NCBI GenBank assembly: GCA_000002445.1
Contig: CH464491.1
Coordinates: 5,024,001 to 5,088,000, forward strand
Length of the DNA: 64,000 nucleotides
Reading direction: 5' to 3'
DNA from: Trypanosoma brucei
Taxonomy: Eukaryota
In this document: positions 1,857-60,876 of the stretch, one piece after another
Layout of the letters: each line of letters starts with the position of its first letter
Position numbering within the stretch: the stretch's first letter is position 1
Made by a program: the position numbers and the translations under genes
The notes under the pieces: model-generated
Database searches by the model: none
Told to the model about the DNA's origin: nothing
Seen by the model: the letters and a program-made list of their open reading frames with translations, nothing else

Positions 1857-1989
1857 AAATATTAGGAGTTTTATCCAAATATCAAATTAAATAAATTATC
1901 TTATAATCGTTATAGTGCTATAAAATTCATAAAGACAACATCTATGAAAGCCAATTTTTTATTAAAAAGGAAACTGCCATTTCGGCTCT

Positions 1990-2230: not shown

Positions 2231-2528
2231 TGGAAGTTTAGCGGCACTAGCTTTCGGATGCCAGCGGCAGATGAGGCAGTCGTTCCTTAACTACCAAATG
2301 TGATAATCTCCTGCTTTAAAATAACCCTATTTTTACATTATTTCCTTTTGAAAGCAAATTGTTTTGTGCAACGAAACTGCCACGCGCCAGCGCTTTTTAA
2401 AAAATTTTAAAGCCGTGCTCAGCGCAAAATTCAGAGCTGAAATTCACATAAACGAAAAAAATTTTCAAAATGTGATAGCGAGGTATAGACTAAGAATACA
2501 AAGACGAAGATTCTTGAAGTTTGAAGAA

Positions 2529-2541: not shown

Positions 2542-2609
2542 CGTAAAAAAGAGCCGCTGATTCATTAAAAAAGTGGCGAATTAAAAAAAATTAATTAAAA
2601 AATTAATAA

Positions 2610-2623
2610 CCCTAACCCTAACA
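2610..2623 (-). repeat. Interstitial telomeric repeat remnant (CCCTAA)2 on plus strand, TTAGGG on the gene strand
   Basis: Plus strand reads AACCCTAACCCTAACA. A second degenerate copy, CCTAACCCTAAA, is at 2795-2810. Confidence 0.6.
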
Positions 2624-2908
2624 CTTTTTAGCCTATTTTTCTTTCTTCCTTTTTTATTTCATTTTTAATAGAACTTTGAGAATCAATTACAAAATTCCCT
2701 AAAAGTTTTGATTCTTTTTAAAAATTTAAAAAAAAATAAAAAATAAAGAAGATCAAAAAAATAATCCAAAATTTGTGAAAACTCAATAATAAAAAACCTA
2801 ACCCTAAAAGTTCAAAACATTCAAAAATAAAAAAATGAGAAATTTTTTAGCTATCAGAAATTTTTTTTACAGAATCAGACAACCAAAAAAATTCTCGGTC
2901 GAATTTAG

Positions 2909-7011: not shown

Positions 7012-7228
7012 CTATCATTATAATATTCGTATATACACACACTTACAACACTCTCCTATCATTATTATTATCATTATCATTATCATTAATATTATTATTA
7101 TTGCTCTTATTATAATATTTGTATATACACACTCACAACACTCTCCTATTATTATCATCATCATTATTATTACTGCTCTTATTATAATATACGTATATGC
7201 ACACTCACAACACTCTCTTAACATTGTG

Positions 7229-7260
<32 letters not shown>

Positions 7261-7320
7261 CATTTTTATTATTACTATTTTTATTATTACTGTTGTTATC
7301 ATTACTATTTTTATAAACAT
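7012..7320 (-). repeat. 70-bp repeat array (3-4 tandem units plus long TAA/TTA tract)
   Basis: Three consecutive copies of (C)TTATTATAATAT(T/A)(C/T)GTATATACACACTCACAACACTCTCC, then about 110 bp of ATT/ATC triplets. This is the longest 70-bp block in the window. Confidence 0.9.
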
Positions 7321-7589
7321 AACTTATATTAATAAAATGAACAAAATAAAGCACAGCATAAAATTAGAATGGCTCTCATTTTTCATACTCTGTTACAACA
7401 TTATGTTACATCCGTAGGCAACTTTTACACCAAAATTTTATATTCTTTAGATTTTCAGATACTCAAAAAATTTGCACTGATTTAAACATTTTCATCAAAA
7501 AGTGTTAACATATATCAGATAATAGTAATTCTCTCAAAGTAGAAAGTGTCATAAATTCCACTAATTGGAAAAAATTTATTAATATGCTG

Positions 7590-10719: not shown

Positions 10720-10810
10720 TCTTATTATAATATTAGTATATACACACCTGAAACCCATCATTATCATTATTAATATCATAGTTATTATCATTGATTTATT
10801 ATTATAACCT
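10720..10810 (-). repeat. 70-bp repeat (one unit plus TAA-rich tract)
   Basis: CTTATTATAATATTAGTATATACACACCTGAAACCCATCATTATCATTATTAATATCA... Confidence 0.8.
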
Positions 10811-11068
10811 TAACTCCTAATATCCGGAAGGTAAGCTTGGTGAACGAAGCAAAAAACTGTCGAAATAGCACTTACTCTTCTTACCTTATATCCACCATAC
10901 TACTTTACACCCATATGTCACTATCATACAAATTTTACCACAATTTTTAAATATTTATCCAATTCTCAAAAGTATCACTAATTTGCACATTTTTTACAAA
11001 AATATTGATATATATCAAATTTTAGTAAATTTCAATAAATTCTCTCAAAATAAAAAATTTCATAATTT

Positions 11069-12562
11069 TCATAAATTTATAAAATCGAGCAAAAATGCAA
11101 GCAATAGAGGCACCTTGTGAATGACAAAAGAATTGCTTCCTGTGGTGTTTGTGGTTCCGGTTTTGCTATCTTTCTCTCCTCCCTCTACTTCCTTTTTGAC
11201 AAAATACGTATCCTTTACGCACTTTTTATTTTCTCCCTCGCCGGTGAGTTTGCAGCCATCTTTGCAATCGTCTCCTGTTTTTTTACTGCATTCTTTGTTT
11301 TCCTCTTGTATTCCCCCATTGGTAGAGCAGTCTTTTGCTGGTTCTGACGCGACTGTTCTATCCGCCTTAGCTTTTAGTTCGGGGATGGCGATTAATAGCG
11401 CGGTTGTTATTTCTGGTGGGTCTGTTAGTGTTTCGATCTTAACTTCTTTGGGTTTTCCGCCATCTATTTTTTTCACCTTTAGCTTATTCACTTGGTTGAC
11501 TCGTGCGGTCGAGGCGGCGTTATCGTCTTTGACTGCCTGTCCTATCAAGCTTCTGGCTGCTTGATCGGCCATAGTGTTAGTGACTTTGCCGAGCTTTATG
11601 AGTAAATCTTTGACTTCGGCTTTTATGGTGGTTGTTGTAAGGGCTTCTGATATTGCCTTTTCTGTTGTTTCTGGGCATGTGCTCTCGGGAAGTTTCATTA
11701 CTTTGCCGATGGCGGTGAAGAGCTTTTTGGCTGCCGTGGCGGAGTCGGGTGCTTGGTAGTCTGTGCCTAGTGCATTTGCCACTGCTATTGTTGCTGTCGC
11801 TCCTGAACCTGTGTGGGGTGATACTGTGATTAGGTCTGCGCCTACCGTGGCTGGGGTAGCGCTGCCGCTGTACTGCCATAGCGCCGTGTTGTCCGCGTTG
11901 GATCCCAGCATAAAGGCGCAGACGTTGTTTCCTGTGGCGTCTTGCAGTTGCGTCGGCCCAGAGTATTTCGCTAATCCTTTGTTAGTTATTTCGCTGCTGT
12001 CTAGGTTTAGCTTCGGTGCGTATTCGTCCGTTATCGTTGTCGGGCATCCGAATTCTGCTGGCGATGTTAGTTTCGTGGTTCTTGTATTGGCCTGTGTTAT
12101 GCACTTTCGCGCCGTGTCGCTCTTTGTGGTAGCTTGAAGTATCGCCACTAGCTCCGTTAGTCGGCCTGCCACGTGGGCACCGTTTGCTGCCGCCGTCACA
12201 CCCGCTGCTACGTTTCCTGCTGCTTTGGTTGTTGCATCTACTCGGCAGTTCTCTGCTGCTCGAGCCGCTGCTGTGAACAGAATTGTATCGTTTACAGTGG
12301 GTACCACTAGAGCAGCCAGAAGCAATTTGTTTCGGGCTTCGGCCGCCGCCTGCTCTTGCCTGTGTAGCTTCTGCAGGCGGCCGATTGCGACTGCCGCTGT
12401 ATCCTGTATTGCCATGGCCGTGCCGCATAGCTGTGTTATTTTGGCTTCGTTGAACCCGTTGGTTGATGGCTTTGCCAATCTTAAGATGGTCGTGAAGCAC
12501 AGTGTTAGAAGGGTCACTGTGTGCGCGGACAGACGCTGTTGCTCTCCCGAAAATGGAAGCAT
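11069..12562 (-). CDS. VSG: Variant surface glycoprotein, intact 497-aa ORF (C-terminal ...TTGSNSFVIHKVPLLLAFLL...)
   Basis: Single long ORF. It has a signal-like N-terminus (TVTLLTLCFTTILRLA) and a VSG CTD with a GSNSFVI...LLLAFLL GPI signal. The 3'UTR at 11004-11065 holds conserved motifs (CATAATTTTCATAAATTT, a degenerate 16-mer). Confidence 0.85.
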   Translation of the reverse strand: MLPFSGEQQRLSAHTVTLLTLCFTTILRLAKPSTNGFNEAKITQLCGTAMAIQDTAAVAIGRLQKLHRQEQAAAEARNKLLLAALVVPTVNDTILFTAAARAAENCRVDATTKAAGNVAAGVTAAANGAHVAGRLTELVAILQATTKSDTARKCITQANTRTTKLTSPAEFGCPTTITDEYAPKLNLDSSEITNKGLAKYSGPTQLQDATGNNVCAFMLGSNADNTALWQYSGSATPATVGADLITVSPHTGSGATATIAVANALGTDYQAPDSATAAKKLFTAIGKVMKLPESTCPETTEKAISEALTTTTIKAEVKDLLIKLGKVTNTMADQAARSLIGQAVKDDNAASTARVNQVNKLKVKKIDGGKPKEVKIETLTDPPEITTALLIAIPELKAKADRTVASEPAKDCSTNGGIQEENKECSKKTGDDCKDGCKLTGEGENKKCVKDTYFVKKEVEGGEKDSKTGTTNTTGSNSFVIHKVPLLLAFLLDFINL

Positions 12563-13971
12563 TTGAAGACGCGTCTACTCTGTGAATTTGATAATGGTTG
12601 AGTGGTACTTTTTTAAAAGTTGTGATAAAGGGTATTAAACGCCTCCGGCATTTCTTGGTAGATTTTGTGTTTAAAGTTTGTTTTGAGTTTTTCTCTGCCG
12701 CTTGTCTGTATGTTGTTCACTAGACGCTACAGCTAACTGGTTGAGTTTAGTTTTAAGTTTACTATAAGGGTTGTTGCTGTTGATTTTTGTTTCTGTTCCT
12801 TATTTCTTTGTTATAAATCCCACAAAATTCTTTGACATCGCTGGCTGACGCTCTTTTTATACTTGTGGTTTATTTTTTCCTTGTAATATTACGCCTAAAG
12901 TATTGAGGCGCTACTATGCACTGTTAAGATCTTGTTCTGTCACGTAAATTACCTTACAAAAACAACATATTCCGCCACCCACGACCATCCCCCCTATATT
13001 CTCCTCTACATTCTATGGAAAAGGTCCTTAATTTTATATATTTCCATTTCAAATCACTATAGTCAAATCTCTACATGACCATCTCCCTCATTACAAGTTT
13101 TTCAACTAATCAAATTGCTTTGCGTATTCATGTTTGACTGAAAAACAGTGTTTCCACTTATTTTTATTTCATCTATCATCTTCTTCATATCCAATCCCAC
13201 GTTTACTTGAATAATGAATACCCTTCTATTTCTAAAACATTTTAACACTTATAGGATCTATTCTTTTTCACCTGCCGTTAATCTTGTGCTGACACATCTA
13301 TGTTCATAATAATATAACTTTTCTGCTTTGTACGTATTCATAATTCTAACTCTAAATCCTTTGAAACCTGACTGATATTAGTTTGATTTCTTTTTAATGC
13401 CAACACTTTCGTGTCTGCGCGCAAATTTGCCGAATACCTAGCCTGCTTCATGCGATCCATCAACTGCGAATCTCCTTTAATTCTAATGTAAATTATTGGA
13501 GGCGTAAACTTCACCAATTTTTATTTGTATACTAATACAAAATTGAGGGTTTATCGGCGCTAACTATGTGTATCTCACAGATCTCATTTAAAGATTCATA
13601 CATCATATTTCTTATACATTTACTTCCTTTTCCAGTTTCCCTATAGGGAGCGGCTTCTGCTGTTTTATTTAATATTTATCTTTCTTCTTTATATTCTTCT
13701 GTTATTGCTTCTGCGTACGGCATAGCAACTATATTTGTCTTGTGCACTGCATTCTAATCCTCTCAAATTGTCCCCTTCTCTCTTTCTGCATGGAGATAGA
13801 CTTATTATGCTTCTGTTTAAACCTCCGTATATCATAATTTCATTCCTTCTTTCTGTCTTTCCGAGTGCCTTTAAATATTATCCCTATTGTCATTTATTTC
13901 CCTTACTCACTTACCTAGACTGTATCCTTGTCTTTGTTTTAAGTGCTTCTATTTTTTTCGTCCATTTAGTT

Positions 13972-14070
13972 ATCAATATTATCATTATTATAATATTCGT
14001 ATATATACACACTCACCACACTCTCCTATTATTATTATTATTATTATCATTATTAATATTATTCATAAAA
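13972..14070 (-). repeat. 70-bp repeat
   Basis: ATCATTATTATAATATTCGTATATATACACACTCACCACACTCTCCTATTATTATTATTATTATCATTATTAATATT. Confidence 0.9.
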
Positions 14071-30512: not shown

Positions 30513-30595
30513 TTTATAATATTAGTATACACATACGCACAACACTCTCCTATTATTATCATCATTATTATTATTACTATTATTACTGCTATTAT
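30513..30595 (-). repeat. 70-bp repeat
   Basis: TATAATATTAGTATACACATACGCACAACACTCTCCTATTATTATCATCATTATTATTATTACTATTATTACTGCTATTAT. Confidence 0.85.
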
Positions 30596-30889
30596 AACCC
30601 AAAATAATAACTATAAAGTAAAACTAAATAAATAAAAATAAAATAACCCTCATTTTTTATAGTCTATTACCATATCGCTTTATACACATAGACCACTATT
30701 ATAAATTTCAACATTTTTAATAATGTACAGAATAACCTTATTTTAATCAAGAAGCGTTAAAATGTATAAACTTTTTCTAAATTGTAAAAATTCTCTCAAA
30801 ATAAGCAGAGTTCTTAAAATTGAGCAAAATGATTTTGCCAATAAATCCTTAAAAGTATTATGCTAGAAGCAAACATGCAAGCAAAAGAG

Positions 30890-32280: not shown

Positions 32281-33370
32281 TTCTTGTTTCAGTGCGTCCT
32301 GTCCTAATCCCTTGTCGGTTGAAATCGGAGAAAGTTATGACGGTTTGGATTCTTTTTTTTCCAAGACGCTATCGCCTACCAGCTGTTTTGAAGGCTTGAC
32401 ACATTTGCAGAGGTTGGTGTTATTTTTGTCGTTTTTGGTTTGTTTTCTTATTTTTATGAGTTTCCGTGGTTGTGATCGGTTTTTTCCACTTGTTTTTCTA
32501 GGAAAACTGGTTGCTTGGAGTTTCAGCGGCTAGAGGCTTGCTAACGTGGAGCCGGAACATAGTTTCCTCGTCGCTTCTGTTTTTTATAATGGACTGTCAG
32601 TTGTGCGTTGGCGGCCGCTTCTATTTAAATTACTCGTTTGTTAAAGAGCGTAAGTATTCCGTCGCTGCACCAATAAGGAATTGGAGTAGTGTCGCCATAG
32701 ATTCTCTTCACTTCATAAATCCGCTCCAACAGTTAAAATATGTTCTGTTTTAAAGAGTTTCTACCTTTTTACTTTTCTTTTCCTCTCTACAGTAATCCGT
32801 TTCTACTCAACGTTTTAAAAAACTCCTCCAGGTAACATTGAAGTGTTTCCTACATCTGTTTACCGTTATTAATATATATATATATATATCATTAACATAA
32901 GACTTCGATATTGTTTCACACTTACACAACCCTACCCATTCTTGTGCTGTATTCTCTTCACAGCTAAATATTAGGATCAGTTATTAGCAAAAAAGTACAG
33001 TCGTCACCAAATCAGCTGCTTCACGTATCCACATTTGAAGAAAATACATACCAAAATTTCCTTCTGTATCATCTCCCTCTCTGCCATGCTGCGCAGCCAC
33101 GTATCCTTTCTTTTTTTCTTCTAGTCCTGTTTCTGCTTGCAAAGCAGTTACTCAAGATGTCCTGTAAACCGTACTCTGTAACCTAAAAATTGGCCACCAT
33201 CTTCCCCTTGTGTATCATGATGCTCCTCATCATGTTTATTATTTAAATGCGCATCTTCCACCTCCCTTTCCCTACATTCCTTACTGTCATACTTGCTCAG
33301 CTTCTCCTTTTGAACTATTGTCATTCTTTTAAATGCTTCTATTTTTCCCGCCGGTTTTATCTCAATCACC

Positions 33371-33460
33371 ACAATATTATAATATTTGTATATACTCACT
33401 CACAACACACTCCTATTATTGTCATTATTATTGCTACTATCATTATCCTTATAATTACAG
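33371..33460 (-). repeat. 70-bp repeat
   Basis: CAATATTATAATATTTGTATATACTCACTCACAACACACTCCTATTATTGTCATTATTATTGCTACTATCATTATCC. Confidence 0.85.
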
Positions 33461-33779
33461 CTACGACTCTAACTTGATATCCATAAAAAATGGGAAATGA
33501 ACTAAATTAATATATTACTTATTTTAATATACAATTACCCTCCTACATTCCACAGACAGTCCTCTATAATACAAATGTTTTACAAGTTCTTATTTTTTAA
33601 AAATTTTAATGAATTACACGTTTTGCAAGTTAGAAGTTAAAAAGTGTTAATATATATAACAAATTTTATAAAACTTCAAAAAATTATCTCAGAACAAAAA
33701 AATCATAAATTTAATAAAATTGAGCAAATATCCTTCGAATGATCGAATGCTACCAAACTTACAAAAGCAACAGGCATCA

Positions 33780-33960
33780 GAGCTAATTTCTTATTGAAAA
33801 TAAAACTGGAATCCTTGCAGTCTTTTTCATACTATTAACAGTTGCTGCCCTTTTCACAAGCTTGTCGATTAGTGTCATGTCTGGAACACTTATCTTTCTT
33901 CTCATCTTCCCCTCCTTCTTTCGCTTCTTCTTTTTATACTTTTTTTATGCCATCCTCACT
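33780..33960 (-). pseudogene. VSG: VSG C-terminal-domain fragment (module copy 2)
   Basis: It shares the CTCACTCAATGTGCACTTTTT block and upstream flank with the fragments at 1990-2230 and 58440-58700. GTGTTAATATATATA (16-mer-like) is at 33644-33658. Confidence 0.5.
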
Positions 33961-34247
33961 CAATGTGCACTTTTTATCGTCGTTTCCTTTGGGATTGAAA
34001 ATGCGCCCATGACAGTTGAGCGGCTTTAGACGTCTGCTGTCAGGGGCAGATCTGGAAGTCATTCCTTAACTGCTGATCGTAATAATCTCCTAGTTCCGAA
34101 TATCTCTCTTTTTAGATTATTTTTCATTTAAAAGCTATTCGTTTCGCGCAGCTACACTGGCATGCGTCAGCGTAAAAAAAGCCGAATGCACCGCAAAGAA
34201 AAACCTGGCAAATTATAAAAAAGCCAAAAAAAGTAAATTAAAACCCG

Positions 34248-34288
34248 AAACCTAACCCCCTAACCCTAACCCTAACCCCAACCCTTTT
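34248..34288 (-). repeat. Interstitial telomeric repeat remnant, about 6 degenerate CCCTAA units on plus strand
   Basis: CCCGAAACCTAACCCCCTAACCCTAACCCTAACCCCAACCC. A weaker CCTAACACTAAAACCTA is at 34389-34406. Confidence 0.7.
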
Positions 34289-34570
34289 TTTCTCTTTTGT
34301 CGGTCCTATTTCTGTTCGGGCAGATTGTTCAAAAACTTAATTAAATTCGTTACCTCGGCCCAAAACAAAAATTAATTAAAAATAAAAAACCTAACACTAA
34401 AACCTACAAAAATCAACAGGAAAAAGGAGAAAAAATTTAGCAATCATCAAAAAAATTTGGTAGGCTCAGGTAGCCAATATATATATATATGTATATAACG
34501 ATTTCTCGGAGATTTTAAAGGGGTTAAAATATATCAAATAGCAAAGTTCGTTTAAAAATAGGGGAATTTT

Positions 34571-36086
34571 TTAAAACAGCAAGGCCATAAAAGCAGAAAA
34601 CACGTGAGGAACAGAAACTCTCAAATTTCTAGAAAACGATTTTTCATCTTTCTTTTTGTTTTCAGCTTTTGGAAAGCATTTAGGGTCTTTTTTATCATCA
34701 AAATCACAGCCTTTTTTATCTTTGCAGGGTTTCACTTGTTTTATGCTTTTTGCATTCATCTGCTGATTTGGCTGGTTCTGTTAATTTGTCTGTGTTTGTG
34801 GGACATGAGGGACTTTCTTGTTTTTTCTTCTTGACTTCTTGTTCGTTAATGAAACGGCGAACAGTGTAACATGTTGCTGCATCTGCGAGTTCTTTGGGGT
34901 TGGTTATTGTTTTCAGTTGTCTGTCGCCATTGCCGCCTACGGCGGCTTTTGGTGGTGTCATGTCGTCAAGCGACTTTCCTACAGCGTTTTTAATTTCGTC
35001 TCCATTTTCACCGATGACTTCCTTTAGTAAGTTATCCACTTTGGTTTTCGTGGCATCGGCGTACTTGGCGCCTTCGCCGTCTATGGCTTTCGCTAATTGT
35101 TCTTTCAGCCTCGGCGCCATTATCAGTGCTTTTATATCCAATGTTGCCGACAGTGTGCCTATCGCTGCTGCAGCGTCTTCTAGCTTGGCTATAGCTGCTG
35201 CTGCTGCTGCAATAGTTTTTTTGTTGGGGATCGCGGTAGCTTCCGAGCTGTCGGAGTATTTGCTGTCGCTTGCGTCAGTTTTACGTGTAAGCGTTATTGT
35301 TGCTTTGTCAAAAATCTTGCCGCCCTTTAAGGCTAGCACTGTGCTTGCGCCGTTGCTGCAGCCGTTGTTGGCTCCGTATTTCTGCCCGTTCGTCCCTGCG
35401 GCTGCGCAAAGTGTGAGCTCTGCGTCTGCTGCTGGTGGCGGCATATCTCTCGCTTTCAGCCCAATCAACACCAACTTATTTGTGCCTTGTTCATTTTGTG
35501 CGTGGCTACCTGTATGGTCTTCGTTCGTCCCGTCGGCTTTTTTGCATGTGCCGTGTCGGTTTGGTGTCAGCTTGGGTTTTGCCTGAAGATTCGTGCCGTT
35601 CGCGTACGTGCTTACTGCTGTGACAAAGTTTGTGGATTCTATTTGCGTGTTGCTGAGCTCTGCAACCGCTAGCATTTGTCGTTCTAGTTGTGCTGCTGCT
35701 GTTGTTCCTGCGTTTATAACGGCTGCTTTTCTTTTTACTGAGTTTAATACTTCACCAGCTGATTTTAAAAGAGACACCGCTAACAGCTTGGCTGTCAGTG
35801 CCTTCGCCCCTGTCTCTGTGCTCGTTACGGCGGGCAATTTTGTTGCTTTTGCGGTTGCCTTTTCCGCGTTATCAATTGCTGTGCTGATCAAGGCTTGGGC
35901 ATTGGCTGCAATATCTCCCAAATAGTATGCTGCGTGGCACGAGGTTGTTACTGCTGGTCTTTTGCGGTGTAATGCGGTAGCTACAGGCATTGCTGTTAAA
36001 GCAAAGATTAGTATTAACGCTTGCGGGGTTCGTTCTATCTTTACTATGGTGTCGGCCTTGCCATATTGGACGTTACTGCTGGTCAT
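34571..36086 (-). pseudogene. VSG: VSG pseudogene with a single frameshift near its 3' end (paralog of the intact VSG at 55190-56644)
   Basis: 456-aa ORF 34716-36086 ends ...SADECKKHKTSETLQR*. The following 62-aa frame, 34571-34759, continues ...KGCDFDDKKDPKCFPKAENKKKDEKSFSRNLRVSVPHVFSAFMALLF. The intact VSG at 55190 has the same CTD uninterrupted (SADECKKHTTEQACKGEKGCDFDEKKDPKCFPNKK...). GGGTTAAAATATATCA is at 34521-34536. Confidence 0.8.
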
Positions 36087-38033: not shown

Positions 38034-39458
38034 TTATGCTAGAAGCAAAAATGCAAGCCAAAGAGGCGCCTTGTTAACGACAAAAGAATTGCTTCCGGTG
38101 GTGTTTGTGTTTGTCGTTTTCCCATCTTTCCCTTCTTGGCAATCGTTTTCTCGCTTAGATTTCACCTCCTTTTTCAACTCACACTTTTTGTCTTTTTCGT
38201 TAAAAGTGCAGTCTTTATCCTTTAAGCTTTCACAGGCTTTTTGATCACCCCCTGCTTCATTGCAAACTTTTTTTGCCGGCTCTTGTGTTGCTTTGTCTGC
38301 TTGTTGGCTTAGAGCTTTTGTGGGTTGTGGCGGTTGAGTAACTTCGACCGTCGCTTGCAAGTATGTTCTCAACGCTGCTGTTTTTAAGTTTGTGACCTCC
38401 GCTGCAATACGAGCATTTTTGAGTGAGTTTTTGTGTGCTGCTTCCAGTCTGCTTATTGCCGCTGTGAACTTGCTGAGCCACGGTATTTGCAGCTTGCCGG
38501 TTGCATCTAACGCCTTATACAGCACGCAGTCTCCGTTGGCGGCGCCGTTGCATTGTGTCTCGTCGCCTTTGCCTAGCATTATTTTGCCTGCTGTCGTGGC
38601 GCCCGCTTTGTGTTTTAGTGCCGCCGTGAAAGTCGCTGCTGCTGCCTTTATGTCTGCTGCCGTCGTTTTTGTGTGTGGTATTAATGGGCATTTTTTTGCT
38701 AAGGCCGCCGCCGCCGTTGCCGACGCACTGGCCGTGCTGTAGGTAATGCCGCTTAGTGCTGTCCCGGTGCATGCTGGTGATGACCCTCCGCTCGCGGAAC
38801 ACAGGCATAGGAAATCGCTCATGAACGACCTGCCCGCCTCGCTGTTGCTGGGATCGTTGCCGCCGCAAGCTGTCGCTGCCGTGCCGTACGTCTTGCTTCC
38901 GGCCTTATCCTCGCCGGCTTTATCGCCGAAAAGAATGTCGTTAAAGTCGGCTTGTGCCTCTGCCTGGGTGGTTGGTTCGACTAAACCTTTTTCAAGTGCC
39001 TTAGCTTTTTCTAGACTGCAATTGATTAGCTTGTTTGCTGTTGTCCGCATGGGGCTGTTTGGTAGTCGAAGTATTTTGATGCTGTCTATTTCCAAGTTGC
39101 CAGCAGAGATGAGGTGCTTGGCTTTCTGCCATTTAGGCCTGTTTTCTTTGTACTGCTGTGGTTTATCGCCGTCACTTGAATCATCTTCAAACTTTTGGTC
39201 GTACATGCTGTCTTCTGCTGTAGAAAGGTTAAGTTCGATCAGCTGTTGTATCGCGCGCGTCACCTCTTCCTTGTCTTTTTGCTCTGGAAGATCTGCTTCT
39301 GCAGTTAGGATCTGACGGATGCCGCACATCATATTGAACGCTTGTGCGTTATCGTTAGCTGCTCCTTTGCAGCTGCCGGCAAGGAGTGTTATTGCTACCG
39401 CAATCTTAACTTCGGCTACCGATAGCCTTGGTGAGCTTTGAAAATTTTGTTTCTTCAT
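38034..39458 (-). CDS. VSG: Variant surface glycoprotein, intact 474-aa ORF (C-terminal ...TTGSNSFVVNKAPLWLAFLLLA)
   Basis: Single ORF with an N-terminal signal (...VAEVKIAVAITLLAGSCKGAAND), FLCLCSASG-type motifs and a CTD Cys cluster (CNEAGGDQKACESLKDKDCTFNEKDKKCELKK). Confidence 0.85.
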   Translation of the reverse strand: MKKQNFQSSPRLSVAEVKIAVAITLLAGSCKGAANDNAQAFNMMCGIRQILTAEADLPEQKDKEEVTRAIQQLIELNLSTAEDSMYDQKFEDDSSDGDKPQQYKENRPKWQKAKHLISAGNLEIDSIKILRLPNSPMRTTANKLINCSLEKAKALEKGLVEPTTQAEAQADFNDILFGDKAGEDKAGSKTYGTAATACGGNDPSNSEAGRSFMSDFLCLCSASGGSSPACTGTALSGITYSTASASATAAAALAKKCPLIPHTKTTAADIKAAAATFTAALKHKAGATTAGKIMLGKGDETQCNGAANGDCVLYKALDATGKLQIPWLSKFTAAISRLEAAHKNSLKNARIAAEVTNLKTAALRTYLQATVEVTQPPQPTKALSQQADKATQEPAKKVCNEAGGDQKACESLKDKDCTFNEKDKKCELKKEVKSKRENDCQEGKDGKTTNTNTTGSNSFVVNKAPLWLAFLLLA

Positions 39459-44130: not shown

Positions 44131-44432
44131 CCGTTATTTTTTAACAATTATTATAGCCCTAACATGTATAAGTAGAATAACTAAAATAAATTAAATAAAT
44201 AAAATGAGAACTGTGCTCCTCCTTCAAACCATTTCACCACACTACTTTACACAATTTCCACTATCATACACACTTTACAAAAAGTTTTAAGATTTAAAAA
44301 CTTTTCATATTTTTATCAATTTTCGTAACCGTACATTTTCGTCAAAAAGTATAATAATACGTCACATTTTATCAAATTTTTATATTTTCATAAATTTCAT
44401 GAAATTGTGCAAAAATCCTCGAAATTCTAAAA

Positions 44433-47715: not shown

Positions 47716-47760
47716 TTGGTATGCACTTACCGCGATCATTATTATTATTATCATCATAAC
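47716..47760 (-). repeat. Degenerate 70-bp repeat remnant (TAA-rich only)
   Basis: ACTTACCGCGATCATTATTATTATTATCATCATAACCC. It is preceded by the conserved flank AAATGCTTCTATTTTTGTC seen next to other 70-bp repeats. Confidence 0.5.
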
Positions 47761-48039
47761 CCTAAAATTAAAAATAGAAAAATAAAATGAGCTAAGTATA
47801 CAAAAAGTAGAAATTTAATACCTTAAAACCTTATTACTTTACAGTTATACACTGCATTCATGCCAAAGTTTATACTTTTTTATTTTCAAAATTTGTACAT
47901 TTCGAAAAGTTTTACAAAAGTGTTAATGTATCTCAAATTCTGGAAAACTCTTCCAAAACAGCAAAATCTCACAAATTTTATAAAATTTAATAAAAAGCTT
48001 CTACCAATAATTCTTAAAAGTGTTATGCTATAAGCAAAA

Positions 48040-49491
48040 GAGGCTCCTTAATTACAAAAGAATTACTCGCTGTTGTAGACGAATTCTCTTTTGGAAAGCA
48101 TCTTTCTACCTCCGTTTTTTCTCATCAAAATCGCAACCTTTTTCATCTTTGCAGGGTTTCTCTGTACTATGCTTTTTTCATTCGTCTGCTGATTTGGGTG
48201 ACTATGGTGCCTTGTTTGTTTTGGAGGGACATGAGGAACTGGCTTGGTTTTTCTTTTTTTTTTTCCTCCTCCTCAATATACCTTCTTACTGTATAATATG
48301 CTTCTGCTGCTGCTAGGTCATCCACTGATGTTTATCTGTTGAAGCTGTGTGTCACCGCTAACTCCTGTAGCTGCTTTGGTTGGTTTGAATTCCCGCGTCG
48401 GCTTTGCCATTTTTGCCTCGACTTTTCTTGATATACTCCATACTCTTGTGTTGGTAGCTTGTATGCTTCTTCTTTGCCCTTGCCTGTGGTGTGCGTCGCT
48501 TTTTCTTCTCTTAAAGCCATTGTAATAGCTACCGTAGGCGACCCTGTTGTAAGTAGCTCTTTTAACTTCGGTCCTTGTCGTGTATAAGTTAGATCGCTCA
48601 TTGCTATTTCCATTGCCTTCACTTCCTTGTTTAGTTTTGTTAGTTTTATTTTCGTGGGAAGCTCGATGTGTCATATTCGCTGGTACTGCCTACATCTCTT
48701 TTCAATGTGCTGACTTTTCGCGTTAACAGCCCACCGCCTCTGAAGCTTATGCTTGTGCTGCCTTCTTCATTTCGGCAGCTTGCTGTCAGGAAGGCTGCTG
48801 CTCGGTCCGTCTCGCAGATCGTTAGATCGTCGGTTAGCTTGGTGCCTGCTGGTTTTACCTTTATAGTGTTGATCGGTAGTCGGCTTGGTTTGGCCGCTGC
48901 TGCACTTAATTCCTTCTGCGACTTTCTAGTGCCTTCTCCGGTTGGGCACTCGCCTTTTGTCGGTGCTGACAGTTCCACTGTGAGGTGCCTACTTGTTGAA
49001 CCGAGAAAAGTGTTCGCTATCGCACCGTCTTTGTTCGGCAGTTTTAGCTTTTAAAGTTCTGCCAATAGGCCGTGTGTTCCAGTTAGTTCTTCGACTTCGC
49101 TGATCCCTGTGACTATTGCATCGTAGTTTGCTTTAGCTTTATTGAGAGCTTCTGTTGCTGCTGCCGTCAGTTTGATCGCCAACAACGTTGCCCCTACCTG
49201 CGAGTTTGTTGCTTGTGCGGCTATTGCCACTCGCAGCCGAGCCGCTTCAAGCAAGTCTGCTTGGGCCTTGTCTATCTGGTTTTTAAGTTTTAGTTCAGCA
49301 TTTTTAGCTAGGGCATTAAGATAATCCGCTGCCGCGCAGGGATCCTCCTCCTTGTGCATGGCGTCTTGGATGGTCGACGTAGCTTGGGAAAAAACAGTTG
49401 CCGCTAGCGCAGCTGCGAAAATGGTCGCCTGCATCATTGTCTGTGTCTTTGGAAATTCTTTGGCCCTGTCTGAAGACTGACGTGTTGCCAC
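48040..49491 (-). pseudogene. VSG: VSG pseudogene (multiple frameshifts)
   Basis: N-terminal ORF 49051-49491 (MATRQSSDRAKEFPKTQTMMQATIFAAALAATVFS...). The 3' end at 48040-48250 is nucleotide-similar to the CTD and GPI region of the intact VSG at 55200-55400 (TTCATCTTTGCAGGGTTTC... versus TTCACCTTTGCAGGCTTGC...). The 16-mer-like GTGTTAATGTATCTCA is at 47920-47935. Confidence 0.75.
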
Positions 49492-54879: not shown

Positions 54880-54960
54880 GTCACTATTAAAAATATTATT
54901 ACTATTACTATCTTACTATTGATATTATCATCATTATCATTACTATCACTATTATAACCG
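54880..54960 (-). repeat. Degenerate TAA-rich 70-bp repeat remnant
   Basis: ATTATTACTATTACTATCTTACTATTGATATTATCATCATTATCATTACTATCACTATTATAACC. No GTATATACACAC core. Confidence 0.45.
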
Positions 54961-55189
54961 TAACTAATATCCATAAATAAACAAATAATGATAAATTAGA
55001 AAATTACCCATCTTTCATACCCTATTACCACAATACTTTATACAGAAATTTAATATTTTATGGGGGTTTAAAACTTGCAAAGGCTTTATTAAAAGAGTGA
55101 AAATTTATCTAATTTAAAAGTTCAGCTAATTCTGGCAAAAATGCAGATTTTTATATGTTTTATAACTTTGAGCAACAATCCTAAATTTT

Positions 55190-56644
55190 TTATGCTAGAA
55201 GCAAAACTGCAAGCAAAGGAAGAGCGTTGATTACAATAGATCTTCTCCCTGTTGAGGTTGTAGACACTTTTTTATTTGGAAAGCATTTCGGGTCTTTTTT
55301 CTCATCAAAATCGCAACCTTTTTCACCTTTGCAGGCTTGCTCCGTTGTATGCTTTTTGCATTCGTCTGCTGATTTTTTCGGTTCTTCTAGTTTGCCTGTT
55401 TTGGTTGGGCAAGAGGGGTTTTCTTGGTTTTTCTTTTTTTGCTCTTCCTCGTCGATAAAATTTTTGATAGTGTAATACGTCGCTGCTTTTGACAGCTCCT
55501 CAGGGGCGTTTATTGAATCAAGTTTTTTAGCGCCGTCTGAGCCTGCTGCTTTACTTGGCTGAAAGGTGTTCAGTAATTGGGTTATTTGTGTTTTGATTGA
55601 GTTTCTTTCTTTGCCGAAAAGTTCTTCGGTTGTGTGTTTAACTTTTTCCTTTAAATTTGGTTGCTCGGCTGTCGCTTCGTGGCCTCCCAAAGCTTTGGCT
55701 ATTGCGTGCCCTGCGGAAGCGGCATCAAAGGCGCTTTCAATGGTAGCAGGTGGTGTTATCGTGCCGAGTTGTGTTGCAGCGTGAACCATTTCAAGTACCA
55801 GCGCAAGTTCTGCTTTTATTGTCGCTTTATTGGGCGTCGTCGCATCGTCGCCGATTTCGTTGTAGGCAAGCGGGGCCGAGTCGCCTGTTGTGTGGGCAAC
55901 TGCTACCGTTGCCGTGAATACTTGCCCTCCTTTGAATCCTATGTTAGTTGCCTGGGTTGAAGTGCAGCTTGCCGTGTTTGGTGCGCCGCTGCTGACCGAG
56001 TTGCTGCCGCATATTGTTAGGTAGGTGCCGAGCGCGCTTCCTGGTGGTGTTGGTGTCACTGTCACTATCGTTATGGCGTTTTTGTGGTCTGCATTATGAT
56101 CGTCGGTGCTCGAGTCCTTTTCCCTGCTGTCGTCCTGTCCGACACAATGAGCTTTAAGAGCCGCGTCCAGCTTGGGCTTGAGTTGGCCTTTTGTCGCTGT
56201 CGCCGTGCTTGTCGTGGCTGTGGCCATATTTAGATCTTGTAGGTGCAGCTGTGAGAGTCTGCTGATTGCTTCCTGGCTCCCTGCGAGCCGGCTCAGCGCT
56301 TCGATGCCTTTTAATAACGCTGGGGTATTTGCGGCTAGCTTATCGTTTGCTTCTGCGGCTTTTTGAATATAAATTGAGCGCAGATAAGCTGCTGCCCAGC
56401 CCGCGTTTGTGTTAACACCGTTGGCGATGACGTCAGGCTTAGAAGCTGTAGTCAGCATCGTCTTGACAGCTTCTTGTGTGGATGTGATTTTGGTCCTTGC
56501 GGAGTCCGCCATCTGCCGCAGCTGCGTTGCTACGTCGCATGCGCTTTTAGCCTTTTTTGTTGGTGTTTTTACAGCTGAAGTTGTTACAACTGGTAGGCAA
56601 AGGGCTATGCTTACGAAAGTCAATGCCTTGAAGTTTGCCAACAT
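55190..56644 (-). CDS. VSG: Variant surface glycoprotein, intact 484-aa ORF
   Basis: N-terminal signal MLANFKALTFVSIALCLPVVTTSA. CTD ...SADECKKHTTEQACKGEKGCDFDEKKDPKCFPNKKVSTTSTGRRSIVINALPLLAVLLLA. It is a paralog of the frameshifted gene at 34571-36086. Confidence 0.85.
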   Translation of the reverse strand: MLANFKALTFVSIALCLPVVTTSAVKTPTKKAKSACDVATQLRQMADSARTKITSTQEAVKTMLTTASKPDVIANGVNTNAGWAAAYLRSIYIQKAAEANDKLAANTPALLKGIEALSRLAGSQEAISRLSQLHLQDLNMATATTSTATATKGQLKPKLDAALKAHCVGQDDSREKDSSTDDHNADHKNAITIVTVTPTPPGSALGTYLTICGSNSVSSGAPNTASCTSTQATNIGFKGGQVFTATVAVAHTTGDSAPLAYNEIGDDATTPNKATIKAELALVLEMVHAATQLGTITPPATIESAFDAASAGHAIAKALGGHEATAEQPNLKEKVKHTTEELFGKERNSIKTQITQLLNTFQPSKAAGSDGAKKLDSINAPEELSKAATYYTIKNFIDEEEQKKKNQENPSCPTKTGKLEEPKKSADECKKHTTEQACKGEKGCDFDEKKDPKCFPNKKVSTTSTGRRSIVINALPLLAVLLLA

Positions 56645-58082: not shown

Positions 58083-58439
58083 TTTAATATGTATTACAGC
58101 AAAAAATGAATTAAAAGAGTAAATAAGTGTAACCCTAATTTTTTATACACTATGATAATAGTATCGTGAAGGTGTTGGACACAGTAAAACACTTTCATAC
58201 ATTACATATTTTTTAAAAATTTCATTCTTTCAATATTTAAGAAATTTTGCAAAGTTTCATCAAAAACGTGTTGCAATATATCCAATGTTAGCAAATTTAG
58301 TAAATTCTCAAAAAATGTCCAAGTTTCATAAGGTTTATTCGTTTTATAAAATAAAACAAATATCCTTATAATAATAAAATGCTATAAAATGTACAAAAGC
58401 AGCAGCCATACTTAGAGCCGATTTCTTATTGACGAGAAA

Positions 58440-58700
58440 CTGGAAGAGTGGAATTTGAAACTTTTATCACCTCAACTTGCATCATCTCCTTTCCAGCCAC
58501 AAAATTTGTTTTTTCCTACTGGTTTGGGACTGTATGCCGCCTCACATTCCGTATGTGCATTAGGATCAGCACATGTCTTTCCATTCTTATTTTTCCCATC
58601 ATTCCCTCCTTCTTAGTTTGCTTCTTTTTCTACTTTCTTCTTGATTTCCTCACTCAACGTGCACTTTTTGCAGTCGTCGATTTTCGGTTTGAAAACGGAC
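58440..58700 (-). pseudogene. VSG: VSG C-terminal-domain fragment (module copy 3)
   Basis: It shares CCTCACTCAACGTGCACTTTTTGCAG and the following GTTGAGCGGCTT flank with copies at 2200 and 33950. The 16-mer-like GTGTTGCAATATATCCA is at 58268-58284. Confidence 0.5.
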
Positions 58701-59002
58701 CTCTAGCAGTTGAGCGGCTTCAGCTGTTGGGTTCCAGCGACAGATTGTGTAGCCGCTCTTTGATTTCTAATTTTGATAATTGGCCATCCCCCAAATGTTA
58801 GTATTTTTTCCTTATTTCCCCTTTAAAAACAAATCGTTTCGCGCGGCGAAACTGCCACCCGCCAGCGTATACCGAAAGATTTAGGCCGCTCGCAGCCCAA
58901 AACTCAGAATTTAAATTCATAAAAGCTCAAAAAGTTAAATCGAAACAAGCTGCTAGTGATGTAGATTCGGCTAATTTAAACAAGGATGTTTGCTGCGTGA
59001 AT

Positions 59003-59016
59003 AAGGGTTAGGGTTG
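59003..59016 (+). repeat. Telomere-like G-strand remnant (AAGGGTTAGGGTTG)
   Basis: Direct read. It lies about 100 bp from the C-strand array at 59117-59181, in the opposite orientation. Confidence 0.55.
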
Positions 59017-59116
59017 TCATAAAAAAAAAGATCCGCTTCATCATTAAAATTTAAAAAAACTAAAGTCACAACGCTTCACTGCTAGTAAAAAAACTTACTA
59101 GTAAGAGGAGAAATAA

Positions 59117-59181
59117 CTCTAACCCTAACCTTCCTAACCTCCCTAACCCTCCATACCTCTCCCTACCTACCGCCTACCCTC
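59117..59181 (-). repeat. Interstitial telomeric repeat remnant, about 9 degenerate CCCTAA-like units on plus strand
   Basis: CTCTAACCCTAACCTTCCTAACCTCCCTAACCCTCCATACCTCTCCCTACCTACCGCCTACCCTC. Confidence 0.7.
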
Positions 59182-59349
59182 TTTTTTGGTTTGTTAGACA
59201 AAAAACAACAAGAAAATAAAAGAAATTTTTTAACTATCAAAAACAAAATTTTACACGCACAGACGGCCAAAAAAAAATATTCCCGGGAAAATTACGTGTT
59301 AAAATATATAAAAATCTCAGAAAGAAAAAAAGAGGGGGAAAAATTTGTT

Positions 59350-60876
59350 TTAAAAAAGCAAGGCCACATATGCGGCAGAAACCATCATGGCGAATTGTTT
59401 GTTTCCTAGAATAGAGGAATCTTTGCATTTATCCTCAATCCATCCACAATAAGCTTTTTCACCAGGTTTTTTGTCCCTCATTCTCCTTTTCACAGTTTGC
59501 TTTATCTTTATGTTTTGTACACCTCTCTGAAGCAGTATTTGTTTCTTTTTTTGAGCTTGTGCTACAGGAACGCCGGTTGCTGTCGCTTTTTTTGGCATCA
59601 AATTTACATTTTTTGGTTTGTTCGGTTTCTGTTGTATTATAACTGCATATAGGATTTGCGTTACATGCAGCAACTTCTGTTAGTTTGCTTCAAGTTTCTT
59701 CTGCTTTTTTACGCCTAAGAACCCTCTGAAAGTTCCTTGTGGTAATCTGGAGCTTTTTTGTTTGCTTTTTTGTTTAAAATTTGTAGTTTCTTTTCTTCCT
59801 TGCGAGCTAGTTGCTGATAGTCTAGCTGCATGGTTAGCTGTAGGTCTATTTGGCCACGTGTCGGAGCTAGTGCTTTGTCCCCTTTAAGAGCTTTTACGAA
59901 GCCACTGTCGCTGCCGTTGGCTGGTATTTTGAAAAGCTCGGTTGCTATTTTCTTTATGTCGTTTTCTTCTTTGGCGGGCTTGTATTGGTAGAAAGAGTTT
60001 ATTGTGTCTTTGAGCTTTCTACCTACTGCGTCCGGTTTCAATAGCTTCTCTAGTCCGTCGGCGTCGAGCGTTTGCGCTGTATCGGTCGCAGACAAGTAAT
60101 TATGTGTTGCTGTGTAAGACGATGCTATCGGCTTGAGTATATCCGTCTCCGTTGCTGCTTTTTCGATGTTGTTTGTTGCAAAGCCCCCGGTGTTTGCTAT
60201 TTCTATTAAACCTTCCAGCAGCAGCATGTTGCCGGTATCCTTTTTGTAAGCCGTTAGGACAGCTGCGGTTAAAGCACAGCTGTTTGCTGTTGCTCCCGTC
60301 AGGGCGGTCGAAGCTGAGAACACTTGAATTGCCGCCTCTTGTAAGTTTGTGGCGTCGGGGATTTCGGCTGTTAAGTCAGTGGCTTTGCAGCCATTGCTAG
60401 CCGCTTCGTTTGACTCCGTATTTGGCTGTGTGCGTGCTGAAATACAGAAGCCGTTAGATGGGTTTGTGCGCTGCGCATTCTTGAACAAGAGCATTAGTTC
60501 GTCTATTCTGCCACTTGCGTAAGAGACTTGGCCTGCAGCCTTTACGGCTGCTGTCATTTTTGAAGTGGGTTCAGTTAGGTGTCGGTCGCCTTCGCCTTGC
60601 AGGTAGGCTGCCAGTATCAGAGGTTGCGTTGCCCATCCCGGTGATTTCACTGCACATGCAGTTAGCCTTGCTGTAGCAGCGTTGATTACTTTCAGATAGC
60701 TAGCTGTGTTTGACAGCTTTAGCCGCGTTCCGAGCTGCGGCTTTTTTTGCTTTAGCAGAGAAATCGCAAGTTTTCTGTGCAGCGGCACTGCTTAGTGCAT
60801 CACCTGCACTGGCTGAGCCCTCGTGTGCGTTAATGTACACTAGTCAAAATAGTGTAAGGCCTGTTCTAATCATGTT
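59350..60876 (-). pseudogene. VSG: VSG pseudogene (frameshift between NTD ORF 59715-60788 and CTD ORF 59350-59673; stop in signal peptide)
   Basis: CTD ends ...KAYCGWIEDKCKDSSILGNKQFAMMVSAAYVALLF. The NTD is 357 aa. An upstream Met at about 60874 is followed by a stop (MIRTGLTLF*). The 16-mer GTGTTAAAATATATA is at 59297-59311. Confidence 0.75.

What the first reader, a model, noticed from the sequence alone, without database searches (positions are those of the whole stretch)
34236..34410. Longest interstitial (CCCTAA)n tract sits 3' of a freshly frameshifted VSG
Module copy 2 carries about 6 tandem degenerate CCCTAA units (34248-34288) plus a weaker CCTAACACTAAAACCTA further on, but no obvious inverted G-strand partner, unlike copies 1 and 3. 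The adjacent VSG (34571-36086) differs from its intact paralog at 55190-56644 by what looks like a single frameshift in the CTD. Interstitial telomeric sequences are fragile and recombinogenic in other eukaryotes. In trypanosomes they would be candidate sites for base J and telomere-protein binding inside a silent array.
Basis: partly seen in the sequence, partly recalled or inferred. Interest (0 to 1): 0.5.

Follow-up and report, generated by a model that had tools for sequence, protein, structure and literature searches.

The report
Fossil telomere repeats in VSG array
A real but decayed 47-base stretch of telomere repeats lies just downstream of a silent trypanosome coat-protein (VSG) pseudogene; it belongs to an old, repeated flank module rather than being tied to that gene's frameshift, and it is most likely a scar of past chromosome-end recombination.

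Summary
The window is a Trypanosoma brucei brucei TREU927 subtelomeric VSG array, with all genes on the minus strand. The tract at 34242-34288 is real. It has about 7 CCCTAA-like units, 3 of them perfect. It is the best telomere-like match in the 64 kb (score 61, against 28 or less in 40 shuffles) and the only canonical G-quadruplex motif.

On the VSG-sense strand it reads TTAGGG and starts 283 nt after the VSG stop. That is the polarity and spacing of a VSG at a true telomere.

The tract is not unique. It belongs to a roughly 0.9-kb module that occurs three times in the window. Each copy runs VSG 3'UTR, telomere-like block(s), conserved spacer, then an orphan VSG C-terminal domain with its own 3'UTR. 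Copy 1 is 96% identical in T. b. equiperdum.

The VSG carries a single +1 frameshift in its C-terminal domain. The frameshift is neither fresh nor a sequencing error: EATRO1125 VSGs end in the same out-of-frame tail. The supposed intact paralog at 55190-56644 is only 30% identical.

Best reading: an inherited subtelomeric interstitial telomeric sequence, a recombination scar, adjacent to a pseudogene by coincidence. Base J binding, telomere-protein binding and fragility remain untested.

The parts
34242..34288 (-). Distal telomere-like tract. It reads (TTAGGG)-like on the VSG-sense strand, with about 7 units, 3 of them perfect (34258-34275). 34264-34284 is a G-quadruplex motif.
34389..34405 (-). 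Proximal short telomere-like block (TAGGTTTTAGTGTTAGG on the sense strand). It is homologous to 2796-2810 in module 1.
34521..34536 (-). Conserved VSG 3'UTR 16-mer (TGATATATTTTAACCC, 1 mismatch).
34571..36086 (-). Full-length A-type VSG pseudogene. The ORF runs 36086 to 34716, and the C-terminal domain and GPI signal continue in another frame to TAA at 34571-34573.
34731..34745 (-). Zone holding the +1 frameshift (CAAGTGAAACCC here, CAGA-GAGACCC in intact relatives). There is no long homopolymer. The premature stop is at 34716-34718.
34030..34172 (-). Module-specific conserved non-coding segment ('X') between the tract and the orphan C-terminal domain. It is about 70% identical to 2250-2392 and 58725-58869.
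33745..34029 (-). Orphan VSG C-terminal domain with no N-terminal domain and with internal stops. It ends in a GPI-signal-like ...CKDSSFIFNKKLALMPVAFVSLVAF.
   Evidence: (PF10659, E=3.3e-16, profile positions 16-104 of 104)
33644..33659 (-). 16-mer-like 3'UTR element belonging to the orphan C-terminal domain (2 mismatches).
33314..33457 (-). 70-bp repeats that open the next VSG cassette.
2607..2625 (-). Module 1 distal telomere-like tract. Module 1 also has a proximal block at 2796-2810, an inverted partner at 2529-2540 and an orphan C-terminal domain at 1916-2250.
59115..59185 (-). Module 3 telomere-like tract, longer but more degenerate. Module 3 also has an inverted partner at 59002-59016 and an orphan C-terminal domain at 58439-58783.

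Best explanation
The tract is a decayed subtelomeric interstitial telomeric sequence that is inherited as part of a repeated VSG 3'-flank module. In VSG-sense order the module runs: VSG stop; 3'UTR 16-mer; a short telomere-like block at about +170 nt; a longer (TTAGGG)n-like tract at about +290 nt; a short inverted CCCTAA partner (lost from this copy by a roughly 130-nt deletion); a conserved spacer X; an orphan VSG C-terminal domain with its own 3'UTR; then the 70-bp repeats of the next cassette.

Shown here: the tract is real and far beyond chance; its G-strand runs 5'-to-3' away from the VSG at a distance typical of VSGs at true telomeres; three diverged paralogous copies exist in the window; one copy is conserved in another subspecies; and homology between copies is much stronger distal to the tract than proximal to it.

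Inferred: a VSG cassette that once ended in telomere repeats became internal when its end was joined to, or recombined with, DNA beginning inside another VSG's C-terminal region. The resulting module was then duplicated, and the VSG bodies upstream were replaced by gene conversion.

The tract now has no demonstrated function. Its position beside a frameshifted VSG is coincidental.
For: - Identity of the locus: exact protein matches to T. b. brucei TREU927 VSGs on a 5.26-Mb record.
- Reality of the tract: score 61 against 28 or less in shuffles. All three significant tracts in the window have the same orientation, G-strand on the VSG-sense strand.
- Distance from the VSG stop is 283 nt. Expression-site VSGs lie 200-1590 nt from the telomeric repeats (PMC2567434).
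- Three modules share the same architecture.
- The three orphan C-terminal domains match Pfam PF10659 with E-values from 1e-11 to 1e-16. They are the only C-terminal-domain pairs less than 1 kb apart among about 20 in the window.
- Module 1 is 96% identical in the T. b. equiperdum IVM-t1 long-read assembly, including both telomere-like blocks and the inverted partner.
- In T. b. equiperdum the orphan C-terminal domain is followed by a second telomere-like tract and a second orphan C-terminal domain, so the unit iterates.
- Homology between modules has z=46-77 distal to the tract and z=6-9 between the VSG stop and the tract.
- The level of decay (3 substitutions plus one 2-nt indel in 47 nt) fits an old tract shared by copies that are about 70% identical.
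Against: - No true telomere-adjacent VSG flank could be fetched for comparison, so telomeric ancestry rests on polarity, spacing and motif alone.
- The three modules are paralogs. Their shared architecture therefore reflects one ancestral event, not three independent ones.
- The short inverted partner scores within the chance range for the window (19-24 against a shuffle maximum of 28). A head-to-head fusion origin cannot be separated from a simple junction.
- Conservation across subspecies is no higher in the tract than in its flanks. It argues neither for nor against function.
- The orthologous copy of module 2 itself could not be retrieved from another strain.
Confidence: 0.7

Rival explanations
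1. Recombination anchor. The tract serves, or served, as the homology used when a chromosome end with a short telomere invades an internal telomere-like tract and copies everything distal to it. Yeast Y' elements, separated by internal TG1-3 tracts, are amplified in this way. Such events would build and reshuffle VSG arrays. Alternatively the tract could offer 3' (micro)homology with the expression-site telomere during VSG gene conversion.
For: - Homology between modules changes sharply at the tract: weak proximal (z 6-9), strong distal (z 46-77).
- The unit is iterated in T. b. equiperdum as VSG, tract, orphan C-terminal domain, tract, orphan C-terminal domain.
- A TTAGGGTTA-like 9-mer also sits just upstream of the 70-bp repeats in 5-6 ordinary cassettes, where about 0.4 would be expected.
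- T. brucei break repair relies on homology and microhomology (title of PMC2377438, listed).
Against: - The same pattern arises if VSG gene conversions simply overwrite the proximal side.
- Only about 20 nt of perfect repeat remain, which is little homology.
- For this VSG, a 3' boundary at the tract would carry the defective C-terminal domain along.
- No independent recombination events at tracts were observed. The strain-specific breakpoint found here lies inside the orphan C-terminal domain (window about 2134), not in the tract.
Confidence: 0.15
2. Chromatin or fragility element. The tract nucleates base J and/or binds TbTRF/TbRAP1, or forms a G-quadruplex that stalls forks. This would be a functional or fragile site inside the silent array.
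For: - It is the only canonical G4 motif in 64 kb.
- Ten GGGTTA repeats suffice as a de novo J entry site on a Leishmania plasmid, and J entry sites lie near G4-forming sequences (PMC4344527).
- Shelterin proteins occupy some short interstitial telomeric sequences in human cells, and such sequences can be fragile (PMC6410037).
Against: - Only 3 perfect and about 4 degenerate units are present, fewer than the 10 tested.
- No J-IP, ChIP or R-loop data could be consulted.
- Module 1's tract and flanks are equally conserved (96%) between subspecies, so there is no sign of selective constraint or of instability.
Confidence: 0.1
3. Recent, locus-specific insertion of telomere repeats by telomerase during repair of a double-strand break. 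This is the 'short ITS' mechanism described in vertebrates, and here it might be linked to the damage that frameshifted the VSG.
For: The core has three perfect hexamers, and the tract lies in an AT-rich intergenic region.
Against: - Homologous tracts occupy the same position in two paralogous modules that are only about 70% identical, and in T. b. equiperdum.
- No empty-site copy exists in the window.
- The frameshift is shared with EATRO1125 VSGs and lies about 450 nt away from the tract.
Confidence: 0.03
4. Artefact: an assembly misjoin with a telomeric clone, or a chance low-complexity match.
For: Subtelomeric arrays are difficult to assemble.
Against: - The score lies far above all shuffles.
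- The tract is only 47 nt and degenerate at both edges, and the array continues for about 34 kb and 30 kb on either side.
- The same architecture recurs three times.
- Module 1 is reproduced in an independent assembly of another subspecies.
Confidence: 0.02

Closest known systems
Subtelomeric interstitial telomeric sequences (degenerate TTAGGG-like islands at the boundaries of human subtelomeric blocks; TG1-3 tracts between yeast X and Y' and between tandem Y' elements)
   Same: A short, degenerate tract of the organism's own telomere repeat, internal to a subtelomere. It lies at a boundary between differently related sequence blocks, its orientation matches the original chromosome end, and its unit can be iterated in tandem (classification from PMC6410037).
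   Different: Here the flanking blocks are VSG cassettes and orphan VSG C-terminal domains. No protein-binding or replication-origin data exist for it. The tract is only 47 nt.
Telomere-proximal VSG in a bloodstream expression site or minichromosome (VSG, 3'UTR, 0.2-1.6 kb, TTAGGG repeats)
   Same: The same order and polarity, with a VSG-to-repeat distance of 283 nt that falls inside the reported 200-1590 nt range (PMC2567434).
   Different: The repeat tract has about 7 degenerate units rather than kilobases. It is followed by more array rather than by a chromosome end.
Fusion-type interstitial telomeric sequences (head-to-head (TTAGGG)n-(CCCTAA)n, for example human 2q13)
   Same: Modules 1 and 3, and the second unit in T. 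b. equiperdum, carry a short inverted CCCTAA partner 66-100 nt beyond the G-tract.
   Different: The partner is only 10-15 nt, is separated by a spacer, scores within chance, and is absent from the copy under study. The DNA beyond it is not an inverted VSG flank.
VSG gene fragments / orphan C-terminal domains and full-length VSG pseudogenes of the T. brucei silent archive
   Same: The adjacent gene is a full-length pseudogene with one frameshift, and the module contains a fragment consisting only of a C-terminal domain. Most array VSGs are pseudogenes (749/804; PMC4155160).
   Different: The consistent pairing of an orphan C-terminal domain with a preceding telomere-like tract did not appear in the papers I could search.

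Membership tests
Interstitial telomeric sequence, subtelomeric type | Tandem copies of the organism's telomere repeat (TTAGGG/CCCTAA), beyond chance | tested here: met
   About 7 units, 3 of them perfect. Wraparound score 61 against a maximum of 28 in 40 shuffles. The 12-mer search found 14 matches against 2.95 expected.
Interstitial telomeric sequence, subtelomeric type | Internal position, not a chromosome end | tested here: met
   VSG array sequence continues for about 34 kb below and 30 kb above the tract within the window.
Interstitial telomeric sequence, subtelomeric type | Lies in subtelomeric repeated DNA, at a boundary between sequence blocks, and is degenerate | tested here: met
   TREU927 VSG array. 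Three paralogous modules. Homology z=6-9 proximal and z=46-77 distal to the tract.
Interstitial telomeric sequence, subtelomeric type | Occupied by telomere-binding proteins or modified like telomeric DNA (TbTRF, TbRAP1, base J) | not testable with these tools
   No ChIP or J-IP data were accessible. The only indirect evidence is that (GGGTTA)10 suffices for J entry in Leishmania (PMC4344527).
Short ITS inserted by telomerase at a repaired break | Precise insertion into otherwise contiguous sequence, shown by an empty-site ortholog or paralog | tested here: not met
   All paralogous modules, and the T. b. equiperdum copy of module 1, carry a tract at the same position. No empty site was found.
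Fusion ITS (head-to-head telomere fusion) | Adjacent (TTAGGG)n and (CCCTAA)n arrays in head-to-head orientation, flanked by two inverted subtelomeres | tested here: not met
   There is no inverted partner at this copy. In copies 1 and 3 the partner is 10-15 nt, 66-100 nt away, and scores 19-24, within the shuffle range. The distal flank is a forward-oriented orphan C-terminal domain.
True telomere 3' of a telomeric VSG | G-strand runs 5'-to-3' downstream of the VSG, 0.2-1.6 kb from it | tested here: met
   It reads TTAGGG on the VSG-sense strand, 283 nt after the stop. The reference range comes from PMC2567434.
True telomere 3' of a telomeric VSG | Long repeat array running to the physical chromosome end | tested here: not met
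   The tract is 47 nt and is followed by an orphan C-terminal domain, 70-bp repeats and further VSG cassettes.
Full-length VSG pseudogene of the silent archive | VSG N-terminal and C-terminal domains present, but the reading frame is broken | tested here: met
   PF00913 A-type domain, E=7e-6, above the cut-off. The C-terminal domain and GPI signal are restored in another frame. A +1 indel lies within 34731-34745.
Recent ('fresh') inactivation relative to an intact paralog in the window | Near-identity to an intact copy apart from the frameshift | tested here: not met
   30% amino-acid identity to 55190-56644. The same out-of-frame tail is present in EATRO1125 VSGs P0008 and P0009.

The most novel reading that the evidence does not exclude
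Telomere-like tracts 3' of array VSGs are the junctions, and possibly still the working homology, through which chromosome ends capture distal array segments. This would be telomere-to-internal-tract break-induced replication, as in yeast Y' amplification. VSG arrays would then have been assembled from ex-telomeric cassettes. The best-preserved tracts, such as this one (the only G4 motif in 64 kb), would additionally act as base J or TbTRF entry points, or as fragile sites, inside silent arrays.
Probability: 0.15. Interest if true: 0.6.

Novelty: new member of a known kind. Interest (0 to 1): 0.3.

Why it matters
If the module reading holds genome-wide, short telomere-like tracts paired with orphan C-terminal domains would be physical footprints of how telomeric VSG cassettes became internal. 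That would show how the silent archive grew and is reshuffled, which bears on how mosaic and 3'-donated VSGs arise. The tracts would also give defined, uniquely flanked internal sites for asking two open questions: whether a handful of TTAGGG units is enough to recruit base J, TbTRF or TbRAP1, and whether they are enough to cause fragility in T. brucei. As it stands, this single tract is an ordinary decayed relic. Its adjacency to a frameshifted VSG carries no special meaning.

Tried and rejected
Retrieving the orthologous tract from another strain:
- Exact-protein look-ups for the window VSGs at 38034-39458, 34716-36086 and 55190-56644 found nothing on record.
- The closest relative with DNA (P0012, T. 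equiperdum OVI) sits on a 3.4-kb contig with only 189 nt downstream of the gene.
- The T. equiperdum OVI contig L002 is colinear with the window only over 8.2-15.8 kb.
- VSG 38034-39458 has no ortholog elsewhere.
- L003 (T. b. equiperdum IVM-t1) covers window 2.1-14.0 kb, so it tests module 1 but not module 2. The region about 20 kb further along that chromosome could not be fetched, because the look-up accepts only window proteins or proteins from homology searches.

Literature:
- Five searches on interstitial or telomere-like repeats in T. brucei arrays found no description (one search likewise).
- Marcello & Barry 2007 is not held.

Other negative results:
- Rfam: no RNA family in the window.
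- No larger palindrome surrounds the tract.
- No long segmental duplication links the three modules beyond about 0.3-0.9 kb.
- No strong telomere-like tract occurs in L001, L002 or L004, so most cassettes lack one.

Rejected ideas:
- Sequencing error as the cause of the frameshift.
- The 'paralog' reading of 55190-56644.
- Recent telomerase insertion.
- Assembly artefact.

Full report
**What the window is.** Four intact ORFs in the window were checked against public proteins. Three are exact matches to annotated VSGs of Trypanosoma brucei brucei TREU927 on a 5.26-Mb record (XP_829782, XP_829784, XP_829785). Pfam confirms A-type and B-type VSG domains and VSG C-terminal domains. All long ORFs and all roughly 20 VSG C-terminal-domain matches lie on the minus strand. 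The window is therefore a head-to-tail silent subtelomeric VSG array. It shows the usual landmarks: 70-bp repeats upstream of each gene and the conserved 16-mer in each 3'UTR.

**The observation.** The plus strand at 34242-34288 reads AAACCCGAAACCTAACCCCCTAACCCTAACCCTAACCCCAACCC.
- That is about seven CCCTAA-like units. Three are perfect and tandem, at 34258-34275.
- In a wraparound alignment to (CCCTAA)n it scores 61, the best in the window. The next best are 59115-59180 (46) and 2607-2625 (33).
- The maxima of 40 shuffles that preserved local composition were 18-28.
- All three significant tracts are C-strand on plus, so all are G-strand on the VSG-sense strand.
- G-strand matches on plus, which include the 'inverted partners' at 2529-2540 and 59002-59016, score 19-24. 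That is inside the chance range.
- This copy has no inverted partner. A three-way alignment shows that it lacks about 130 nt present in the other two copies.
- The tract is also the only canonical G-quadruplex motif on either strand of the 64 kb.

The sequence-level observation is therefore sound.

**The neighbouring VSG.** The ORF runs from 36086 to 34716 (456 aa, PF00913). It ends ...KSADECKKHKTSETLQR*. One frame over, the sequence continues KPCKDKKGCDFDDKKDPKCFPKAENKKKDEKSFSRNLRVSVPHVFSAFMALLF* and reaches TAA at 34571-34573. That is a normal C-terminal domain with a GPI signal.
- Alignment with two intact C-terminal regions places a single extra base within 34731-34745 (CAAGTGAAACCC against CAGA-GAGACCC). 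It is not in a long homopolymer.
At the DNA level it aligns over just 242 bp of the C-terminal region, at 75%.
- The frameshift is neither new nor an error. Two VSGs from a different strain, EATRO1125, end in the same out-of-frame tail. These are VSG 1125.2959 (94% identical over 265 residues) and VSG 1125.4781 (65% identical overall, but with the last 111 residues identical).
- A defective 3' end has evidently been passed around by segmental conversion.
- Most array VSGs are pseudogenes (749 of 804; PMC4155160). A tract next to one is therefore the default expectation.

**What the tract belongs to.** Reading in the VSG-sense direction from the stop codon, the order is:
- the 3'UTR 16-mer (34536-34521);
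- a short telomere-like block (34405-34389);
- the main tract (34288-34242), which starts 283 nt after the stop;
- a conserved non-coding segment X (34172-34030);
- an orphan VSG C-terminal domain (34029-33745), which matches PF10659 at E=3e-16 over profile positions 16-104 of 104, has internal stops and has no N-terminal domain upstream;
- that domain's own 16-mer-like element (33659-33644);
- the 70-bp repeats of the next cassette (33457-33314).

The same architecture recurs at 1916-2990 and 58439-59360. Among about 20 C-terminal-domain matches in the window, the only pairs less than 1 kb apart are these three VSG/orphan pairs. The copies are about 70% identical in X and the orphan domain, so the module is old. 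The VSGs upstream of the three copies are unrelated. Homology between copies is far stronger distal to the tract (local-alignment z=46-77) than between the VSG stop and the tract (z=6-9). The tract thus marks a boundary between differently related DNA.

**Evidence from another genome.** A VSG 86% identical to the module-1 VSG lies on a 2.37-Mb contig of T. b. equiperdum IVM-t1.
- That locus (L003) is colinear with window 14047 down to 2134 at 90-94% identity.
- Module 1 is 96% identical across about 860 nt. This includes both telomere-like blocks and the inverted partner.
- Homology ends inside the orphan C-terminal domain.
- In T. b. equiperdum that orphan domain is followed by a second telomere-like tract (L003 12513-12621, score 46). 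After it come a spacer, an inverted partner resembling those of the window modules, and a second orphan C-terminal domain before the 70-bp repeats.

These tracts are therefore reproducible and heritable, the unit can iterate, and they are not conspicuously unstable. Two other T. equiperdum loci carrying five C-terminal domains have no strong tract. Only a minority of cassettes carry one.

**Most likely explanation.** The polarity (G-strand running away from the VSG) and the distance (283 nt) match a VSG at a real chromosome end. The distance between VSG and telomeric repeats in 17 expression-site clones was 200-1590 nt (PMC2567434). I therefore read the tract as a fossil of telomere repeats. 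They became internal when a telomere-proximal VSG cassette was joined to, or recombined with, DNA that begins inside another VSG's C-terminal region. The module was later duplicated, and its upstream VSG bodies were overwritten by conversion. The tract has 3 substitutions and one 2-nt indel in 47 nt, which fits that age.

The anatomy, statistics, paralogy and cross-subspecies conservation are shown directly. The telomeric origin and the order of events are inference. No true telomere-adjacent flank could be retrieved for direct comparison.

**Rivals.**
- A recombination-anchor role, analogous to yeast Y' elements separated by internal TG1-3 tracts, is attractive. It fits the homology boundary at the tract, the iterated unit in T. 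b. equiperdum, and a side observation. That observation is a TTAGGGTTA-like 9-mer sitting 0-50 nt upstream of the 70-bp repeats in 5-6 ordinary cassettes, where about 0.4 would be expected. However, the one strain-specific breakpoint I could see lies in the orphan C-terminal domain, not in a tract.
Ten GGGTTA repeats are a sufficient base J entry site on a Leishmania plasmid, and such sites lie near G4-forming DNA (PMC4344527). Shelterin proteins bind some short interstitial tracts in human cells (PMC6410037). Here, though, only 3 perfect units remain and no occupancy data were available.
- Recent telomerase insertion and assembly artefact are both disfavoured by the paralogous and orthologous copies.

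**Comparison with known kinds.** This is a subtelomeric interstitial telomeric sequence in the sense used for yeast and human subtelomeres. It meets the sequence, position and boundary criteria. Protein occupancy is untestable here. It fails the tests for a telomerase-inserted short ITS, since no empty site exists. It fails the tests for a fusion ITS, since this copy has no head-to-head array. It also fails the test for a true telomere.

I found no paper in the searchable library that describes such tracts, or their pairing with orphan C-terminal domains, in T. brucei arrays. That library omits key subscription papers, for example Marcello & Barry 2007, so I do not claim novelty beyond 'new member of a known kind'.

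**Verdict.**
- The tract is real and is the best-preserved telomere-like sequence in the window.
- It is an inherited relic within a repeated VSG 3'-flank module.
- The link to a 'freshly frameshifted' VSG is not supported.
- Interest is modest. It would rise if a genome-wide survey showed that such tracts systematically mark cassette junctions, or if they recruit base J or telomere proteins.

Noticed in passing
window 10805-10813, 30595-30603, 30644-30652, 44154-44162, 47757-47765, 54955-54963, 58130-58138 (minus strand): A TTAGGGTTA-like 9-mer (at most 1 mismatch, VSG-sense orientation) lies 0-50 nt upstream of the 70-bp repeat tract in 5-6 of about 16 ordinary cassettes. About 0.4 would be expected by a rough Poisson estimate (P about 3e-6). 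It may be a vestigial telomere unit at cassette junctions, or part of an extended 70-bp-repeat consensus.
   Followed up: partly
window 1916-2250, 33745-34029, 58439-58783 (minus strand): Three orphan VSG C-terminal domains (PF10659, with no N-terminal domain and with internal stops). Each has its own 3'UTR 16-mer-like element, and each lies directly after a telomere-like tract and a conserved spacer.
   Followed up: yes
L003 (T. b. equiperdum CM010675.1) 11260-13700; window about 2134: T. b. equiperdum carries module 1 at 96% identity, then a second telomere-like tract (12513-12621) and a second orphan C-terminal domain (about 13150-13475) that TREU927 lacks. Homology between the two genomes breaks inside the first orphan C-terminal domain.
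   Followed up: partly
window 34716-35050 (minus strand); proteins P0008, P0009: EATRO1125 VSG 1125.4781 is only 65% identical overall. Its last 111 residues are nevertheless identical to the window VSG, including the out-of-frame tail SETLQR*. A defective 3' end appears to have spread between different VSGs by segmental conversion.
   Followed up: partly
window 34264-34284 (minus strand): The telomere-like tract is the only canonical G-quadruplex motif (four runs of three or more G with loops of 1-7 nt) on either strand of the whole 64-kb window.
   Followed up: yes
window 55190-55330 (minus strand): The 'atypical' VSG at 55190-56644 shares the hinge and the start of the C-terminal domain with the 34571 gene. 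It then has a 15-nt gap and a divergent hydrophobic tail (...RRSIVINALPLLAVLLLA) in place of the usual GPI-signal ending. A related C-terminal region lies at 48032-48271 (74% identity).
   Followed up: no
L002 (T. equiperdum OVI CZPT02001630.1) 3686-8527, against window about 14033-14044: About 4.8 kb is present in the T. equiperdum OVI contig but absent from TREU927, between otherwise colinear array segments that are 91-93% identical.
   Followed up: no
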